From the IMG/VR virus record IMGVR_UViG_3300045733_000287, positions 1 to 56,426 of that record: a stretch of DNA of 56,426 nt. The stretch is one strand, 5' to 3'. The stretch is from a virus (lineage: Duplodnaviria; Caudoviricetes). The notes beneath the pieces are model-generated. The model saw nothing but the letters and a program-made list of their open reading frames with translations, was not told where the DNA came from and searched no databases. Made by a program: the position numbers and the translations under genes. Below, piece by piece: positions 139 through 39,958 of this stretch (position 1 is its first letter; every line of letters starts with the position of its first letter).

Positions 139-2004
139 TTATTTCAAAAATAAACCCGCTTTATTGTAAAGTCTTTTATTTGCTATGTCACAATATTCTG
201 AAATCAATTCCGATAGAATGAAATTAAAGCCTTCATTCGTTGCTGAAAGCGCAGCAGGACCTGACCCGCCAAACGGATCATAAGTTAAGCCTCCTTTTGG
301 TGTTACAAGTCTCTGCAGGTATTGAATTAATTTTATAGGTTTAACTGTCGGGTGAAAATTTTGTGAAGACCTGTTTGTTCCATCGCCTTGAAACGATCCG
401 GGGTTTTGGGTACCACTTGACCAGATCATAGGTTTTGTCTGAAACTGATGTAACCCATCATTCCGTTCACCCCTGTCAGCTTTCGCAATGTAAAAGAACC
501 TCGAGGCCCCGCCTTTGTCGTCATAGAAAGTATCACCGTCATCGCCTCTTTGAGCATAGTCACCGTAGATGCCTTTTGATTTACCACTATGTCCTGATTT
601 GACTTTCGCAAACGCTCCGGCTTCGGGTACCTGTTTATCAAGTTCAACTGCAGTAAACTCATCGAGAATTATATTTGCAGGAAAACGACCAATAGTCATA
701 AAGTCAGTTGATTTCTTCATATTATTACCAAATCCGCTGTCACCACAATTCATTCCACTCCCCCCTTCTTTGTCATATTCTCTTGGTTCTGTTGTCCTAC
801 TTACTTCAACCCTGCACCCATCAATATTAATTCCACCTGTACCCCATTTTAAGACATTCTGAGCAACGGTCTTTTCGCTTAATGGCTTTCGTGCTACACA
901 AATATGATTATGATGTGATTTTCCGTCCTCTTCCTGGAAGTTTTGAAGATCCGTTGATATAGCATTGACGTGAGCAGAAAGCATTTGGATGTTCTTTAAT
1001 AACTCCATTGAGTCGAGTAAATATTTTACCACAGGAGGGACATTCGCATATTGTTCTTTTTGACAAATCTTTTCCTTTATGATGTAATTGAGAATGTCTT
1101 GCGACAAGTAACAATTCAAGGTTTTCGGGTCTATTATCTGATCTATTTGTGTTTTTGTGGTGGACATTTTCAGACGACAATAATTTTCTTCCGAGTATTT
1201 GCTCCATGATGATACGGTGTTCAAGTTGATACTCATTTCCGACTCGAATTGCGACATATCCATCTGATCTAATAAACCTGCCGACATACTGATGGCTTCT
1301 TCTGCAGTCCATTGAACAATACCTAACGCCTCGCTTAATTCTTTTGGGCTTAACTTGAAATTCTTTTCCGCAACATTCACATTTAACAGTAACCATAATT
1401 TAAGTTTTAATACATATAGGCTCATGCAAATACTATGCCAATATTGTATATCTGTAAGGGGTTTTTGCGCAACGGTTATTATTTCATGTGCGGGCTTTAA
1501 ACCGGTACCCCAGCCGGACCAATAAGTGGCCGGATAAGTGGCCGGATAAGTGGCCGGACGTTCTTTGCCTCCATCAAACATTGATTTTTTACCCTGCTTT
1601 TGAGAAGTCCAAGTCTGTTCTCCTTTGTCATTAAGAATATTTTCTCTTTTTACGCCTGCCTGTTTGTCAATAGCCTTGCTAATATCTAATGACTTCGGGA
1701 ATCCCGACCCGTAGAGCCACAGAATTGAATCTCTTATTTCAAATCCTGCATCTTCAATAGCGCAAACCATACGGTGTGATGTCCGGGTACCACCAAAAGC
1801 AAGTAAGTACCCGCCGGGCTTTAATACCCTTAAACACTCCTTCCAAAGATCTACATTATAAGCAATGCCGGAGTTATCCCATTTTTTACCCATAAATCCA
1901 AGTTCATACGGAGGATCTGTTACTATTGAATCAACAAAATTATCCGGCATTCGTTTCATGGTTTCCCTGCAATCTTCATTATATATTTTATTCAGTTCTA
2001 TCAT
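139..2004 (-). CDS. Beta-class N4/N6 DNA methyltransferase with an internal 192-codon insertion
   Basis: N-terminal DPPY; C-terminal HPTVKP and DPFGGSG motifs. Confidence 0.9.
   Translation of the reverse strand: MIELNKIYNEDCRETMKRMPDNFVDSIVTDPPYELGFMGKKWDNSGIAYNVDLWKECLRVLKPGGYLLAFGGTRTSHRMVCAIEDAGFEIRDSILWLYGSGFPKSLDISKAIDKQAGVKRENILNDKGEQTWTSQKQGKKSMFDGGKERPATYPATYPATYWSGWGTGLKPAHEIITVAQKPLTDIQYWHSICMSLYVLKLKLWLLLNVNVAEKNFKLSPKELSEALGIVQWTAEEAISMSAGLLDQMDMSQFESEMSINLNTVSSWSKYSEENYCRLKMSTTKTQIDQIIDPKTLNCYLSQDILNYIIKEKICQKEQYANVPPVVKYLLDSMELLKNIQMLSAHVNAISTDLQNFQEEDGKSHHNHICVARKPLSEKTVAQNVLKWGTGGINIDGCRVEVSRTTEPREYDKEGGSGMNCGDSGFGNNMKKSTDFMTIGRFPANIILDEFTAVELDKQVPEAGAFAKVKSGHSGKSKGIYGDYAQRGDDGDTFYDDKGGASRFFYIAKADRGERNDGLHQFQTKPMIWSSGTQNPGSFQGDGTNRSSQNFHPTVKPIKLIQYLQRLVTPKGGLTYDPFGGSGPAALSATNEGFNFILSELISEYCDIANKRLYNKAGLFLK
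880..1488 (-). mobile_element. HNH homing-endonuclease insertion inside the methyltransferase
   Basis: Duplicated flanking motif HEIITVAQKPL (1488-1456) and HNHICVARKPL (912-880), 576 bp apart, enclosing the HNH ORF. Confidence 0.75.
908..1396 (-). CDS. HNH endonuclease with Zn-finger repeats, nested in an alternate frame
   Basis: EHRIIMEQILGRKL..ENVHHKNTNRSDNRPENLEL; CxxC..YCS..C and CxxC..FCS..C fingers; A-rich start region TAAAACTTAAATT-ATG. Confidence 0.9.
   Translation of the reverse strand: MVTVKCECCGKEFQVKPKRIKRGVRYCSMDCRRSHQYVGRFIRSDGYVAIRVGNEYQLEHRIIMEQILGRKLLSSENVHHKNTNRSDNRPENLELLLVARHSQLHHKGKDLSKRTICECPSCGKIFTRLNGVIKEHPNAFCSRQCYINGSSKLPGRGRKITS
1522..1557. repeat. 12-bp tandem repeat x3 (ATAAGTGGCCGG), encoding PATY x3
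   Basis: Three exact units read directly. Confidence 0.95.
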
Positions 2005-2378
2005 TTCAAGTATTCGTCAATGATTTTCCGGCATTCGTCAAACCCGACACCGAATTCCGCCCTATAACCTTTCTCCCGGAGTGCCTGTATCATCTCAAAC
2101 TGCTCGGTTAAATGTGGTGTCGCCGGTTGTAATGACTTATTGAGTAGTTTCGTCCCTTCGACTTTGATCTCAATGAACAGACCGTGCCAGAAGCTTCTTG
2201 GTGAAGCAATAAACAGATCAGGATATCCTTTATTTCCCTGTATCGCTTTCATTTTGCCTGACTGAGCTTTTGATAAATTCAGCCCGGCATAATCGAAATG
2301 ATAGATTACCTTCGGAAATTGATATCTCAAATACATGGCTATTGCCTGACAGATTTGATATTCACGGTCGTTTCTCAT
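2001..2378 (-). CDS. VRR-NUC family nuclease (resolvase-like), allele A
   Basis: GYPDLFI..GLFIEIK..Q....L...GY motif. Confidence 0.85.
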   Translation of the reverse strand: MRNDREYQICQAIAMYLRYQFPKVIYHFDYAGLNLSKAQSGKMKAIQGNKGYPDLFIASPRSFWHGLFIEIKVEGTKLLNKSLQPATPHLTEQFEMIQALREKGYRAEFGVGFDECRKIIDEYLK

Positions 2379-15142: not shown

Positions 15143-15825
15143 GATTTCGATATTAAAATATACCCGGTTAGTTCTTCCTGTAAATCAAAAAATATAGTGT
15201 CAATCAACCCGTCAACTTTAGTAAATTGTGGCATTTGTTGGAGTTGGTATTCGGTATTTGCATCAACTGTAATTATACACCTGACACCTGGATTTTCTCC
15301 GAAGTCTTCCGCATAATTCAGAGTTTTAGCAGCATCTTCAGGGTCAACTTGTTCAACCTGATAGTCTTCTATAATTGGTTGTAATAAAGCTGTAAATGGT
15401 ACCTTTTTTACATTCGCATCATTTCCCCAAAGAAGTGCCATTTCGTATTTATGAAGATTTGCAAGAGCCAAGACAGGGTGAAGATTCTGAAGATTGTCGG
15501 GAGCCAGATAAAGACCCCTGCCTTTAAATACTGATTTATAGATTATTGCTGTCTGCCCGGCTGTCGGACATTTACCAGTGCGGAAATCATCAGATACATC
15601 AACCGTATTAGTATCAACTGCAATGATCGAATAAGGAACCCCAACGTAATCAATAAGATAATAACCTATTTCCTTTTGATTTGCTCCGGGGTTATTTGTG
15701 TCAATTGCTTTTACGGTTAGTCGATAAGTAGCTGCATCCTGTACCGTTTCTCTTGTAAGTTGGAAAACATTTAAAGCAAGGGTGCGCCAGGCAACAACGG
15801 GATTATATTTCGAGGCTATACTCAT
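15139..15825 (-). CDS. Tail-region structural protein
   Basis: 228 aa; position in the tail module. Confidence 0.6.
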   Translation of the reverse strand: MSIASKYNPVVAWRTLALNVFQLTRETVQDAATYRLTVKAIDTNNPGANQKEIGYYLIDYVGVPYSIIAVDTNTVDVSDDFRTGKCPTAGQTAIIYKSVFKGRGLYLAPDNLQNLHPVLALANLHKYEMALLWGNDANVKKVPFTALLQPIIEDYQVEQVDPEDAAKTLNYAEDFGENPGVRCIITVDANTEYQLQQMPQFTKVDGLIDTIFFDLQEELTGYILISKS

Positions 15826-16592
15826 TTAAACGTTAAGTTTTGCTGTGCCAAATGATTCTTAATTCTCTTTTCTGCAATATCAAAATACTTTTCATCTTTT
15901 TCCATACAAATATAATTCCGGTTTGTATTTATACAAGCTATTGCAGTAGTGCCACTTCCGGCACAATTATCTAAAACTAAATTCCCTTCATTGGTATAGG
16001 TTTTGATAAGATATTCAAATAAGAGTACGGGTTTTTGAGTGGGGTGGAATCGTTGTTTTTTGAATTGATTATTAACCTCTAATGGAAACTCTAAAATTGA
16101 TTTTGGCATTCTAAGTTCAGTCATATTTATTCTTTGTCGTGATTTTATATTTCCATATACTTCACCCGGCAAAGTCTCAAAATCATAAGAGCGATTAAAC
16201 CTATTAGATTTACGGTTAATTTTAATAGGGTTGTAAATTGGTATGTTTTTATAGAATACTAATATATTTTCATGCTCCTTTATTGGTTGCGTTTTCGCTG
16301 TCATAAAATTACCTCCTCTTTTTTTATCCCAAATCCATTCATATTTAAACATTTTAATATTTGACATTACCAAGGCACTTGTAAAGGGCTGTGAGGCTGT
16401 TAAAACTATTGCACCATTATCTTTAATAACTCGCTTGTATTGTTCCCAAAGAGGCTCAAAAGGTATTATAACATCCCATTTACAGGCAGTAGTTCCATAA
16501 GGCAAATCACAAAGAATCATATCAATACTCTTATCAGGAATTAGTGGCATTAACTCCAAGCAGTCACCAATATATGTTTTATTCAACTTCAT
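15822..16592 (-). CDS. Beta-class N4/N6 DNA methyltransferase
   Basis: DLPYG; HPTQKP; LDNCAGSGTT. Confidence 0.92.
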   Translation of the reverse strand: MKLNKTYIGDCLELMPLIPDKSIDMILCDLPYGTTACKWDVIIPFEPLWEQYKRVIKDNGAIVLTASQPFTSALVMSNIKMFKYEWIWDKKRGGNFMTAKTQPIKEHENILVFYKNIPIYNPIKINRKSNRFNRSYDFETLPGEVYGNIKSRQRINMTELRMPKSILEFPLEVNNQFKKQRFHPTQKPVLLFEYLIKTYTNEGNLVLDNCAGSGTTAIACINTNRNYICMEKDEKYFDIAEKRIKNHLAQQNLTFK

Positions 16593-38500: not shown

Positions 38501-39958
38501 TTACTCCTCATTCTTAAACATTTGATGATAATGTTCCAGATATGCAGCAAGTCCGCAAAGACTATCCGCCGCATCATCTTCATTTTTTGAAGTCTTCAAA
38601 AGCTTACAGGCCTGAGCCATGAATCTTTGCAGATCAGGATTTGGATTCTCAGGAAAGTAAAAGAACAGCTTCACCAGTCCGGCATTAGCAAGTATCCGGG
38701 CCATCTTATTCTTTTTAGACTTCAATCCGAACACTTCAAGAGCTGGCATGAGCTCTCTGCAATGTTGTGCAAACCACGCCCCGAAACTATTCGTTTCAAT
38801 GGCTAAATGGCTTATATGATGAACCTTTACTTTATCCTGAGTCATCGGAAGGTATGCCGACAGTCCGAGTGTGCTGTCAAATATTGCATCAAATACATAA
38901 ACCCTGTTCATATTTGCATATACTCTCGCTATCGGACAGGCAAAGGCGTCAGTGCCCTCATCAGCAGGATCGACAAAGCCAATAGTGAAATACTCAACAT
39001 CGTCAGGAGGGAATTCTTTGTAGTAATGCAGACTGCTTACCGGAAATACCTTTGTTTCATCATCAGAAAGAGCAACGCAATGATAGTTTGCCTGAAAGAT
39101 CATCTTTGTCCGGCTGTCAACCTCCATTCTTTTTTTTAGCTTCAGATATGATTCTTTGCTTAATATGTCAGGACAAAGCATCTGATCCGTTTCAGCATTA
39201 TACACTGGCATTGATAATATATACCATTCTCCCGGTTCTGTTGTCTCAAGAATAACCTGCGGATCCTGCTCACCCCAAATGGTAGCACAGAATATCTCCT
39301 TTACATCGCCTCCGATAGCTGCGTTACGACTTGAAAACGTCCCGGACAGCCATACCCATACCTTTGACAGTGCGTTGTCAGAAAGTGCCATTTCCGCATC
39401 CTTGATAAGGTCATCCATTATCCTGATCGTTGCACCCTTACCGGTAACACCGCCACCAACACCTACACCGAGATAATTGAAATGTTGACCTTCTAAGGCC
39501 CACTTCTGAAAGCTCGCATTACCTTGTTTTATCTTTGTCGACGGGAATACATCGGAATAGACTGTTTGTGATTCGAGATTCTTAACCTCACTGATCCCAT
39601 CCCTGGTGTATCTGGAAAAGTCTGAAGCCTGAGCATCAGAGTGACTTGCTGTAATTATTCGCTCCTCGTTATTTTTGCCAAGTACCCATTTAGTGAAGTT
39701 TACAAGAGTCCTGCTTTTTCCGTGCTGTGGGGCCATGCGAATCATTAACTTATGATAAGGCATCCCGTCAGCCTTTAAAAGCTTATTGTAATAAAATGAC
39801 TCAAGGGTATTGCAGAGTATTCTAAGATGATCCCGGTCCTGTTTGTAGAATTCCGGTTCTAATAATTGACAGAAATCCCAGAAGTGATCCCGGGATTTAT
39901 CAATAGATTCCTCTTTAAGTAAGGTTTCAAGTTCAATTATTTCAACATCAGTCAGCAT
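38501..39958 (-). CDS. terL: Terminase large subunit
   Basis: APQHGKS Walker A, GVGGGVTGKGA, IMDDLIKD, VDPA, IETN, EDDAADS. Confidence 0.92.
   Translation of the reverse strand: MLTDVEIIELETLLKEESIDKSRDHFWDFCQLLEPEFYKQDRDHLRILCNTLESFYYNKLLKADGMPYHKLMIRMAPQHGKSRTLVNFTKWVLGKNNEERIITASHSDAQASDFSRYTRDGISEVKNLESQTVYSDVFPSTKIKQGNASFQKWALEGQHFNYLGVGVGGGVTGKGATIRIMDDLIKDAEMALSDNALSKVWVWLSGTFSSRNAAIGGDVKEIFCATIWGEQDPQVILETTEPGEWYILSMPVYNAETDQMLCPDILSKESYLKLKKRMEVDSRTKMIFQANYHCVALSDDETKVFPVSSLHYYKEFPPDDVEYFTIGFVDPADEGTDAFACPIARVYANMNRVYVFDAIFDSTLGLSAYLPMTQDKVKVHHISHLAIETNSFGAWFAQHCRELMPALEVFGLKSKKNKMARILANAGLVKLFFYFPENPNPDLQRFMAQACKLLKTSKNEDDAADSLCGLAAYLEHYHQMFKNEE

What the first reader, a model, noticed from the sequence alone, without database searches (positions are those of the whole stretch)
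880..1488. Hidden HNH endonuclease gene overprinted inside an unbroken methyltransferase ORF
Seen: a complete Zn-finger/HNH gene (908-1396) with its own A-rich start region lies on the same strand, in a different frame, entirely within the 621-aa MTase. The MTase frame has no stop across it. The insert is bounded by a diverged duplication of an 11-codon motif (HEIITVAQKPL / HNHICVARKPL) 576 bp apart, just after WGTGLKPA, and the HNH stop lies inside the second copy. At 3/64 stops per codon, 163 open off-frame codons has a chance of roughly 4e-4, so the open frame looks selected. Inference: a homing element that avoids killing its host gene without RNA or protein splicing, by being read through as a tolerated ~190-aa loop; bypass between the duplicated motifs is an alternative. 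From memory, an alternate-frame HNH has been reported in actinobacteriophage methylases (the ShiLan insertion), so the concept has precedent. This would be a Bacteroidota-phage case with a visible boundary duplication.
Basis: partly seen in the sequence, partly recalled or inferred. Interest (0 to 1): 0.85.

Follow-up and report, generated by a model that had tools for sequence, protein, structure and literature searches.

The report
Hidden HNH gene inside phage methylase
A selfish homing-endonuclease gene sits out of frame inside a phage DNA methyltransferase gene and is kept free of stop codons in the host frame, apparently so the enzyme can be translated straight through it; this is a new, distant member of the already published "ShiLan domain" family.

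Summary
A 576-bp insert (907-1482, minus strand) in a 621-aa PF01555 methyltransferase holds a complete Zn-ribbon HNH gene (908-1396) in the +2 frame. The methylase frame has no stop across it.

The kind is already in print. It is the "ShiLan domain" of mycobacteriophage methylases (PMC9957025, PMC11855218). The window's copy belongs to that family: homologous host gene, same insertion site, same relative frame, HNH stop in the last four bases, HNH 44% identical.

New here:
- The family extends well beyond actinophages, with 87 distinct HNH sequences.
- Of 119 loci found through the HNH alone, 117 are open in the methylase frame, one has a single TAG, and one breaks at a contig end.
- Synonymous shuffles predict 8.8 stops in the window (0 of 5000 open).
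- The overlapped peptide shows no selection of its own.
- 65 of 85 start regions carry a Shine-Dalgarno motif before a conserved start. The paper reported no ribosome-binding site.
- Both copies of the duplicated 14-residue motif are conserved as protein and co-vary.

Best reading: read-through as a tolerated, unstructured loop, with the HNH made by internal initiation. No experiment exists. The host is unknown; the phage does not use Shine-Dalgarno motifs.

The parts
139..2004 (-). DNA methyltransferase ORF, 621 aa, beta-class N6/N4 (PF01555), read through the insert
   Evidence: DPPY (residues 30-33) and G580-S581-G582 are invariant among 38 insert-bearing homologues.
1483..2004 (-). 5' 'exon' of the methylase (residues 1-174), ending in GWGTGLKPAHE
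   Evidence: Alignment to insert-free P0002, P0003 and P0010.
907..1482 (-). The insert, 576 bp (methylase residues 175-366): a ShiLan-type element
   Evidence: Gap opposite the insert-free homologues. Same site in ShiLan, Mantra, Cr-LKS3 and 119 scanned loci.
1456..1482 (-). Pseudo-strand: element-borne copy of the motif that follows the insertion site (IITVAQKPL, residues 175-183). With KPAHE before it, this is 'copy 1'.
   Evidence: K at motif position 11 in 35 of 35, A in 33 of 35 and P in 31 of 35 distinct alleles, with freely varying third codon positions.
1397..1455 (-). Linker between copy 1 and the HNH start. It carries the HNH translation-initiation region, which is AT-rich here and lacks a Shine-Dalgarno motif.
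   Evidence: In 65 of 85 other alleles this stretch holds GGAG, GAGG or AGGA.
908..1396 (-). HNH homing-endonuclease ORF, 162 aa, frame +2 of the methylase: N- and C-terminal Zn ribbons around an HNH_3 core. The ATG lies 86 nt into the insert; the TAA lies within the insert's last four bases.
904..921 (-). Degenerate copy of the KPxxE(P) motif (KSHHNH, residues 362-367), overlapped by the HNH tail and stop
   Evidence: P at its second position in 24 of 35 alleles. The frequent P-N is the methylase-frame reading of the HNH stop (my reading of the nucleotide rows printed).
880..903 (-). The methylase's own strand after the insertion site (ICVARKPL, residues 368-375), the second half of 'copy 2'
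   Evidence: Matches the insert-free consensus. Predicted as strand 367-372 in the full-length AF2 model.
139..906 (-). 3' 'exon' of the methylase (residues 367-621 plus stop), with the target-recognition region and the AdoMet-binding motifs

Best explanation
The insert is a ShiLan-type mobile element: a minimal homing-endonuclease gene lodged at one conserved site of a phage orphan methyltransferase gene, between KPxxE and the following PIxVARKP strand.

It has no ribozyme and no intein. The element survives because its sequence is constrained to have no stop codon in the methylase frame. Ribosomes that start at the methylase ATG therefore read through about 192 extra codons and finish the enzyme (inferred). 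The extra peptide is the off-frame reading of the HNH gene and is most likely a disordered or loosely helical surface excursion.

The HNH is made separately and at a low level, by internal initiation in frame +2 at a conserved start five codons before its first zinc-binding cysteine. In most hosts a Shine-Dalgarno motif 7 nt upstream serves that start. In this phage an AT-rich, motif-free leader does.

The enzyme presumably cuts insert-free alleles during co-infection, and repair copies the element in (inferred; homing has not been shown for any member).

The element also carries a protein-conserved surrogate copy of the strand it displaces. This may help the N-terminal half to fold (speculative).
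For: 1. Same family as the published element. The window HNH is 43-44% identical over 97-98% of its length (E about 1e-34 to 1e-36) to the hidden HNH of ShiLan, Mantra, Totinger, OwlsT2W, Starcevich, Pollywog, MISSy, Murica, Filuzino and Bipolar. It is 62% identical to one in Cylindrospermopsis phage Cr-LKS3. All lie under annotated methylase genes except one of the two Mantra records, which calls the gene a hypothetical protein. The methylases align and the site is the same.

2. Loci were found through HNH-frame patterns only, which is blind to the methylase frame: 35 viral, 4 genome and 80 metagenome loci.
- All 119 lie in a homologous methylase.
- In every locus where it could be scored, the HNH is in frame +2 (36 of the 39; every flank hit was found in the frame that +2 predicts).
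- 117 of 119 have no stop in the methylase frame.
- The third frame has 2-29 stops.

3. Shuffles on 36 distinct HNH ORFs.
- Exon codon usage predicts 2.3-9.5 stops (mean 5.5).
- P(open) is 0 of 5000 for 13 ORFs and at most 0.056 for any.
- Within-gene permutation gives P(open) of 0.0024-0.75, with a product of 10^-38.6.

4. The insert-bearing methylases stay under selection. DPPY and GSG are invariant in 38 of them.

5. No Rfam match at E<=10. No Pfam match on the in-frame insert. 489 of the 576 bp are HNH ORF, which leaves no room for a ribozyme.

6. AF2 on the full length gives pLDDT below 50 for residues 171-364 and places the real strand at 367-372.

7. A Shine-Dalgarno motif occurs in 65 of 85 distinct start regions, against 13.6% background. 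GGAGG starts at -12 in 26 of them.

8. Mobility. HNH sequences 91-96% identical sit in methylases only 55-62% identical (L082, L128, L134). P0002, 82% identical to the window's enzyme, has no insert.
Against: - Nobody has measured the size, activity or RNA of an insert-bearing methylase, here or in the two papers. PMC11855218 section 4.4 lists these as future work.
- One locus (L123, a 1,023-bp contig) has a TAG in the methylase frame. L196 loses both frames in the last 50 or so bases of its contig.
- In GC-rich alleles the open frame is not improbable taken singly (P up to 0.75).
- The alleles are related, so products of probabilities overstate the evidence.
- The scans could only find HNHs carrying two conserved motifs, and only the best 80 of 148 metagenome relatives were examined.
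- Both AF2 models are shallow (38 and 32 sequences). The full-length model has a mean pLDDT of 56.
- Read-through alone does not explain why a second copy of the strand is conserved.
Confidence: 0.8

Rival explanations
1. The insert is removed after translation. Either an unrecognised kind of protein splicing excises it, or proteases clip the disordered loop and the two halves stay associated. The frame must be open because the C-terminal half can only be made by reading through.
For: An open frame is equally required under this reading. The insert is predicted to be disordered or low-confidence, so it would be protease-accessible. Each half would keep its own copy of the strand motif, and the N-half alone folds confidently with copy 1 as a strand.
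Against: There is no Hint/intein domain. The residue after the insert is H or I here and P in most alleles, not C, S or T. The insert peptide shows no selection of its own, so it cannot encode a conserved self-processing fold.
Confidence: 0.07
2. The insert is an unrecognised self-splicing or host-spliced RNA element, and the open frame is a side effect.
For: HNH genes are often carried by group I introns (established knowledge; PMC11855218 section 3.5). The similarity between the start of the insert and the 3' flank was raised there as intron-like.
Against: There are 0 Rfam matches at E<=10. Only 87 of the 576 bp lie outside the HNH ORF. The duplication is conserved as protein and not as nucleotides: codon identity at identical residues is 0.32 within alleles and 0.31 between alleles. 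A spliced insert would not need an open frame, yet 117 of 119 loci keep one against an expectation of 2-9 stops. RNAweasel found nothing in ShiLan (PMC11855218 sections 3.1 and 3.5).
Confidence: 0.04
3. Insert-bearing methylases are inactive. The frame is kept open for another reason, for example to avoid premature termination with polar effects on downstream genes.
For: The methylase is dispensable in relatives of ShiLan (PMC11855218 section 4.1). Genes follow closely on the same strand in the window.
Against: Catalytic and cofactor motifs on both sides of the insert are invariant in 38 insert-bearing homologues about 40% identical to the window. That is not expected of dead genes. The true strand after the insert keeps the insert-free consensus: R in 32, K in 32 and P in 34 of 35 alleles.
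Confidence: 0.06
4. Ribosomes bypass from the first copy of the motif to the second, as in T4 gene 60.
For: Duplicated motifs lie 576 nt apart. Association of a bypass with a mobile HNH gene has a precedent in T4 gene 60 and mobA (recalled, not checked here).
Against: The distance is more than ten times the known 50-nt hop (recalled). No stop follows the would-be take-off site. The copies share no excess codon identity. Bypass would remove the need for the open frame that is observed.
Confidence: 0.02

Closest known systems
ShiLan domain: hidden out-of-frame HNH in mycobacteriophage ShiLan gp65-type methylases (PMC9957025, 2023; PMC11855218, 2025)
   Same: [quoted passage not shown] Neither shows an intron or intein signal. 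HNH 44% identical.
   Different: - The window's HNH is 162 aa, against the 195 aa annotated for ShiLan.
- The phage is AT-rich (38% GC), uses no Shine-Dalgarno motifs and is not an actinophage.
- Family comparison here places the start further in (86 nt here; the GTG after GGAGGACGA in ShiLan) than the paper's GTG at 18 bp.
- It finds a ribosome-binding site where the paper reported none.
Pacc40 gp60 insertion (PMC11855218 section 3.6)
   Same: An out-of-frame nuclease-like ORF inside a methylase gene that stays open.
   Different: A different methylase family, a different site and an unrelated ORF of about 160 aa, by the paper's account. Not examined here.
Inteins with homing endonucleases, such as the intein at LYG|C...N|SGF in ShiLan gp65 and in P0001
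   Same: A selfish insertion in the same gene family that leaves the host frame open. P0001 carries both elements.
   Different: An intein's endonuclease is in frame and the element removes itself by protein splicing. This insert has no Hint domain and no nucleophile at +1.
Group I intron-encoded HNH endonucleases such as I-HmuI (recalled; cited in PMC11855218)
   Same: An HNH homing enzyme inside a phage gene, with a patchy distribution.
   Different: No ribozyme is present, and the host frame is open and under selection to stay so.
Free-standing endonuclease genes that split a host gene, such as mobE in the Aeromonas phage Aeh1 nrdA gene (recalled, not checked)
   Same: Neither RNA nor protein splicing. 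The host function survives the insertion.
   Different: In that case the host gene is broken into two polypeptides. Here a single chain is preserved.

Membership tests
ShiLan-type hidden-HNH insertion | Host gene is a methylase homologous to ShiLan gp65 | tested here: met
   the window, ShiLan, Mantra and Cr-LKS3 methylases align through DPPY, AIEDAGFEIRD, SGFPKS and GWGTALKP. PF01555.
ShiLan-type hidden-HNH insertion | Insertion at the same conserved site (after KPxxE, before PIxVARKP) | tested here: met
ShiLan-type hidden-HNH insertion | HNH ORF in the third frame, homologous to the ShiLan HNH | tested here: met
   Frame +2. 44% identity over 97% of the length, E 1e-34.
ShiLan-type hidden-HNH insertion | No stop codon in the methylase frame across the insert | tested here: met
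ShiLan-type hidden-HNH insertion | The start of the insert resembles the residues after the site, and the HNH stop lies in the last four bases | tested here: met
   (16 columns, probability 96.6%, E 5.4e-10). The insert ends TAA+T.
ShiLan-type hidden-HNH insertion | Active homing of the element | not testable with these tools
   Indirect only: discordant HNH and exon identities and presence/absence among close homologues.
Group I intron | Conserved ribozyme core detectable by covariance models | tested here: not met
   0 Rfam matches at E<=10 in 1-2600. 489 of 576 bp are ORF.
Intein | Hint domain blocks, and a C, S or T at the first residue after the insert | tested here: not met
   No Pfam family on the in-frame insert at E<=0.1. 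The +1 residue is H or I here.
HNH endonuclease (PF13392 HNH_3) | H-N-H catalytic residues and zinc-binding cysteines | tested here: met
   E 5.1e-10 against a cut-off of 24.8 bits. H79, H80, N88, N92, H101 and cysteines 6, 9, 27, 31, 119, 122, 141 and 145 are invariant in A2.

The most novel reading that the evidence does not exclude
The element is not merely tolerated. It brings a dedicated structural adaptation: a surrogate copy of the beta-strand it displaces. That copy is kept by protein-level selection and co-varies with the host's own strand. It would occupy the strand's slot in the N-terminal catalytic half, at least while the ribosome is still making the 190-residue off-frame peptide, so that the enzyme folds. 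If so, a 'splint' would be a third way, beside RNA splicing and protein splicing, for a homing element to spare its host gene.

Support:
- K, A and P of copy 1 are conserved in 35, 33 and 31 of 35 alleles, with free synonymous variation.
- Within-allele identity at 7 variable positions is 2.40 against 1.39 between alleles (0 of 20000 shuffles reach it; relatedness is not controlled).
- There is no excess codon identity, 0.32 against 0.31.
- AF2 docks copy 1 as strand 169-180 at pLDDT about 92 when the N-half is modelled alone.
- In the full-length model AF2 prefers copy 2.
Probability: 0.2. Interest if true: 0.7.

Novelty: new member of a known kind. Interest (0 to 1): 0.45.

Why it matters
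Homing endonuclease genes are thought to survive inside essential or useful genes only by riding on self-splicing introns or inteins. The ShiLan-type element shows a cheaper route. It stays out of frame, avoids stop codons in the host frame, and lets the host protein carry the off-frame peptide.

The window shows that this is not an oddity of about a dozen mycobacteriophages. It is an old and widespread lineage:
- 87 distinct HNH sequences in 46 clusters at 70% identity.
- Phage records for Mycobacterium and a cyanobacterium.
- MAG or genome contigs labelled Betaproteobacteria, Kribbella and Cloacimonadota.
- This AT-rich phage, which uses no Shine-Dalgarno motifs.

The family gives a clean natural data set for studying dual-frame constraint. 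It also supplies a corrected start and ribosome-binding site for expression studies, and a specific testable feature in the conserved surrogate strand. For annotation, methylases of this family that are about 190 residues too long should be checked for a hidden HNH gene.

Tried and rejected
- Group I or other RNA families: Rfam E-value scan of 1-2600, no match.
- RNA evidence: the look-up of sequencing runs listed no RNA holder. This says nothing about expression.
- Selection on the overlapped methylase-frame peptide was rejected. Among 46 representatives, methylase-frame identity is 0.312 against a null of 0.255. The non-coding third frame shows the same excess, 0.301 against 0.249.
- Recent duplication or gene conversion between the two motif copies was rejected. 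Nucleotide identity is 16-26 of 42. Codon identity at identical residues is 0.32 within alleles and 0.31 between alleles.
- I suspected by eye that the duplication extends into the helix after the strand. It is not supported: hhalign aligns only 16 columns.
- Host assignment by terminase failed: the best match is 38% to a Geobacillus phage. The only megablast matches are 210 nt at 78% to Flavobacterium phages in another methylase gene.
- Sequence search of solved structures with P0002 found beta-class methylases (RsrI, CcrM, MboIIA, PvuII) but no alignment over the insertion site. I ran no fold search, because the full-length model is of low confidence.
- Supplements and the GitHub repository of the two papers were not seen. 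[quoted passage not shown]
- Only four papers in the library use the terms, and all concern actinophages.
Full report
WHAT IS THERE. On the minus strand the window has a 621-aa ORF (139-2004). Inside it, in frame +2, lies a 162-aa ORF (908-1396). Pfam calls the long one an N6/N4 DNA methylase (PF01555, E 2.6e-24) and the short one an HNH_3 endonuclease (PF13392, E 5.1e-10). The methylase-frame translation of 880-1488 matches no family at E<=0.1. Alignment to insert-free homologues defines a 576-bp insert (907-1482, residues 175-366). P0002, for example, is 425 aa, 82% identical in A1, and joins KPAHE directly to PICVARKP. The HNH ATG lies 86 nt into the insert, and its TAA lies within the last four bases.

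IS THE OPEN FRAME MORE THAN CHANCE? For the window I recoded the HNH with synonymous codons drawn from the methylase exons. This gives a mean of 8.8 stops in the methylase frame and no open frame in 5000 trials. Permuting the gene's own synonymous codons gives P(open) = 0.0026. The third frame has 16 stops.

The stronger test is comparative. I searched three collections with patterns taken from the HNH frame only (FxVKPKR and RFVRSDGYV types), so the search was blind to the state of the methylase frame. It returned:
- 35 viral loci, from 82 pattern matches;
- 4 genome loci, from 50 pattern matches;
- 80 metagenome loci, the best 80 of 148 relatives among 441 pattern matches.

All 119 lie inside a homologous methylase. 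Where the frame could be scored, the HNH is in frame +2: 36 of the 39 loci, and every flank hit lay in the frame that +2 predicts. In 117 of the 119, the methylase frame has no stop across inserts of 522-1236 nt. The third frame has 2-29 stops.

There are two exceptions. L123, a 1,023-bp contig, has one TAG. L196 loses both frames in the last 50 or so bases of its contig.

The collections overlap. 118 scorable HNH ORFs give 87 distinct protein sequences and 46 clusters at 70% identity. For 36 distinct ORFs, exon codon usage predicts 2.3-9.5 stops. P(open) is 0 of 5000 for 13 of them and never above 0.056. The product of the within-gene P(open) values is 10^-38.6. The alleles are related, so these products overstate independence, and single GC-rich alleles are unremarkable (P up to 0.75). 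Even so, the pattern as a whole cannot be chance.

IT IS A KNOWN KIND. Gosselin et al. 2023 (PMC9957025; passages read) named a 'ShiLan domain' in actinophage methylases. Arsenault, Gosselin and Gogarten 2025 (PMC11855218; abstract, sections 3 and 4 and legends read) made these points:
- The domain is an out-of-frame HNH gene in the third frame.
- It has no stop in the methylase frame.
- It has no intron or intein signature.
- The first 11 insert residues resemble the 11 after the site.
- The authors propose a tolerated loop.
- All of their evidence is computational.

The window's HNH is 43-44% identical over 97-98% of its length to the hidden HNH of ten named mycobacteriophages. It is 62% identical to one in Cylindrospermopsis phage Cr-LKS3. 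The methylases are homologous and the insertion site is the same. Even the intein site of ShiLan gp65 recurs in P0001. The finding is therefore a new, distant member of that family.

Three library searches found four papers on the subject, all on actinophages. The words 'metagenom' and 'Cylindrospermopsis' do not occur in the 2025 paper. Its supplements and repository were not available to me.

WHAT THE FAMILY COMPARISON ADDS.

(a) The overlapped peptide is only an echo of the HNH. Among 46 representatives, methylase-frame identity is 0.312, against 0.255 for open-frame-preserving synonymous permutations. The non-coding third frame shows the same excess, 0.301 against 0.249. Selection keeps the frame open but does not shape the peptide. 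AF2 agrees: with 38 insert-bearing sequences, residues 171-364 have pLDDT below 50.

(b) The insert-bearing methylases are live genes. DPPY, GSG and some 45 other columns are invariant among 38 of them.

(c) The HNH has a proper start. In 65 of 85 distinct alleles, GGAG, GAGG or AGGA lies at -20 to -5 of an ATG (76 alleles) or GTG (9 alleles) five codons before the first cysteine. The background rate in the same loci is 13.6%. GGAGG starts at -12 in 26 alleles. ShiLan itself reads GGAGGACGA-GTG there. The 2025 paper placed the start at a GTG 18 bp into the insert, reported no ribosome-binding site and invoked leaderless initiation. In the window a stop lies two codons before the ATG, and the leader is AT-rich without a motif. 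The whole phage ignores the motif: 6 of 49 ORFs carry it, against 11.5% by chance. Conserved methylase-frame words such as LE..LW are the off-frame reading of this motif and start codon.

(d) The element moves. HNHs 91-96% identical sit in methylases 55-62% identical (L082, L128, L134).

(e) The duplication is real, 14-16 codons long, and present in all 35 distinct alleles (hhalign probability 96.6%, E 5.4e-10).
- The first half of copy 1 (KPxxE) and the second half of copy 2 (PIxVARKPL) keep the insert-free consensus.
- The element-borne second half of copy 1 is conserved too: A in 33, K in 35 and P in 31 of 35 alleles. Third codon positions vary freely.
- It co-varies with the allele's own strand. 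Identity at 7 variable positions is 2.40 within alleles against 1.39 between alleles, and 0 of 20000 shuffles reach the observed value. Relatedness is not controlled.
- There is no excess codon identity, 0.32 against 0.31.
- So copy 1 is under protein-level selection. It is neither a recent target-site duplication nor a gene-conversion tract.
- Modelled alone, the N-terminal 202 residues fold at a mean pLDDT of 82, with copy 1 as strand 169-180 at about 92. In the full-length model copy 2 takes the strand. That is compatible with a surrogate-strand role and proves nothing.

MECHANISM.

Shown from sequence:
- two overlapping ORFs;
- selection against stops in the host frame;
- an intact HNH active site and zinc sites;
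- a conserved initiation region;
- no ribozyme or Hint domain.

Inferred:
- the methylase is translated through the insert as one 71-kDa chain whose extra 192 residues loop out;
- the HNH is made by internal initiation and homes into empty alleles.

The rivals are post-translational removal, unknown RNA splicing, a dead methylase kept open to avoid polarity, and ribosomal bypass. Each is weighed in its own section of this report. All but the first are hard to reconcile with an open frame under selection together with conserved catalytic motifs.

CONTEXT. The window is a tailed-phage genome. It encodes a large terminase (38501-39958), a major head protein, a tape-measure-like protein and a primase/helicase, and its GC content is 38%. 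Its host is unknown.

VERDICT. The kind is already published, and this is a new member in a new phage lineage. The family-wide statistics, the corrected start with its ribosome-binding site, and the conserved surrogate strand are modest additions. Nothing has been tested at the bench.

Noticed in passing
P0001 (946 aa); ShiLan gp65 = L081:693-3575: The closest insert-bearing homologue of the window's methylase also carries an intein-like insert at LYG|C...N|SGFPKS. This is the same site as the intein of ShiLan gp65, so the two elements co-occur far outside actinophages.
   Followed up: partly
L123 (whole contig, 1023 bp): The only clear exception: one TAG in the methylase frame inside an otherwise intact insert, with a full-length HNH. 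It could be a null allele or a sequencing error; the two cannot be told apart.
   Followed up: partly
L120:2421-3656 (Kribbella genome contig): The gap between the methylase flanks is 1236 nt, about twice the usual length, and still has no stop in the methylase frame. A second insertion probably follows the KPLAS motif.
   Followed up: no
L089:197-658: The HNH frame stops about 9 codons earlier than in its relatives, before the conserved PGRGR tail, while the methylase frame stays open. This may be a decaying endonuclease.
   Followed up: no
L007:3325-4014: A methylase homologue without the HNH has a different insert of about 690 nt between query residues 113 and 145, near the SGFPKS site.
   Followed up: no
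window 1517-1552 (-): A 12-nt unit is repeated three times in tandem and encodes PATY-PATY-PATY in a variable loop of the methylase. P0002 has two PATY units.
   Followed up: no
window 15822-16592 (-): A second ORF of 256 aa. Part of it (16316-16526) is 78% identical in nucleotides to DNA methyltransferase genes of 13 Flavobacterium phages. It is the only megablast match of the first 25 kb.
   Followed up: partly
window 2001-2378 (-): The 125-aa ORF that ends 4 nt into the methylase start matches PHROGs 824 and 2363 (function unknown) and, more weakly, a Holliday-junction-resolvase family (phrog_5702, E 2e-8).
   Followed up: no
P0080: One insert-free methylase has the unusual junction KPAMELWTLARKPL. 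It shares the rare WTLARKPL strand variant with copy 2 of the insert-bearing allele L110 and may mark a lineage that lost the element precisely.
   Followed up: no
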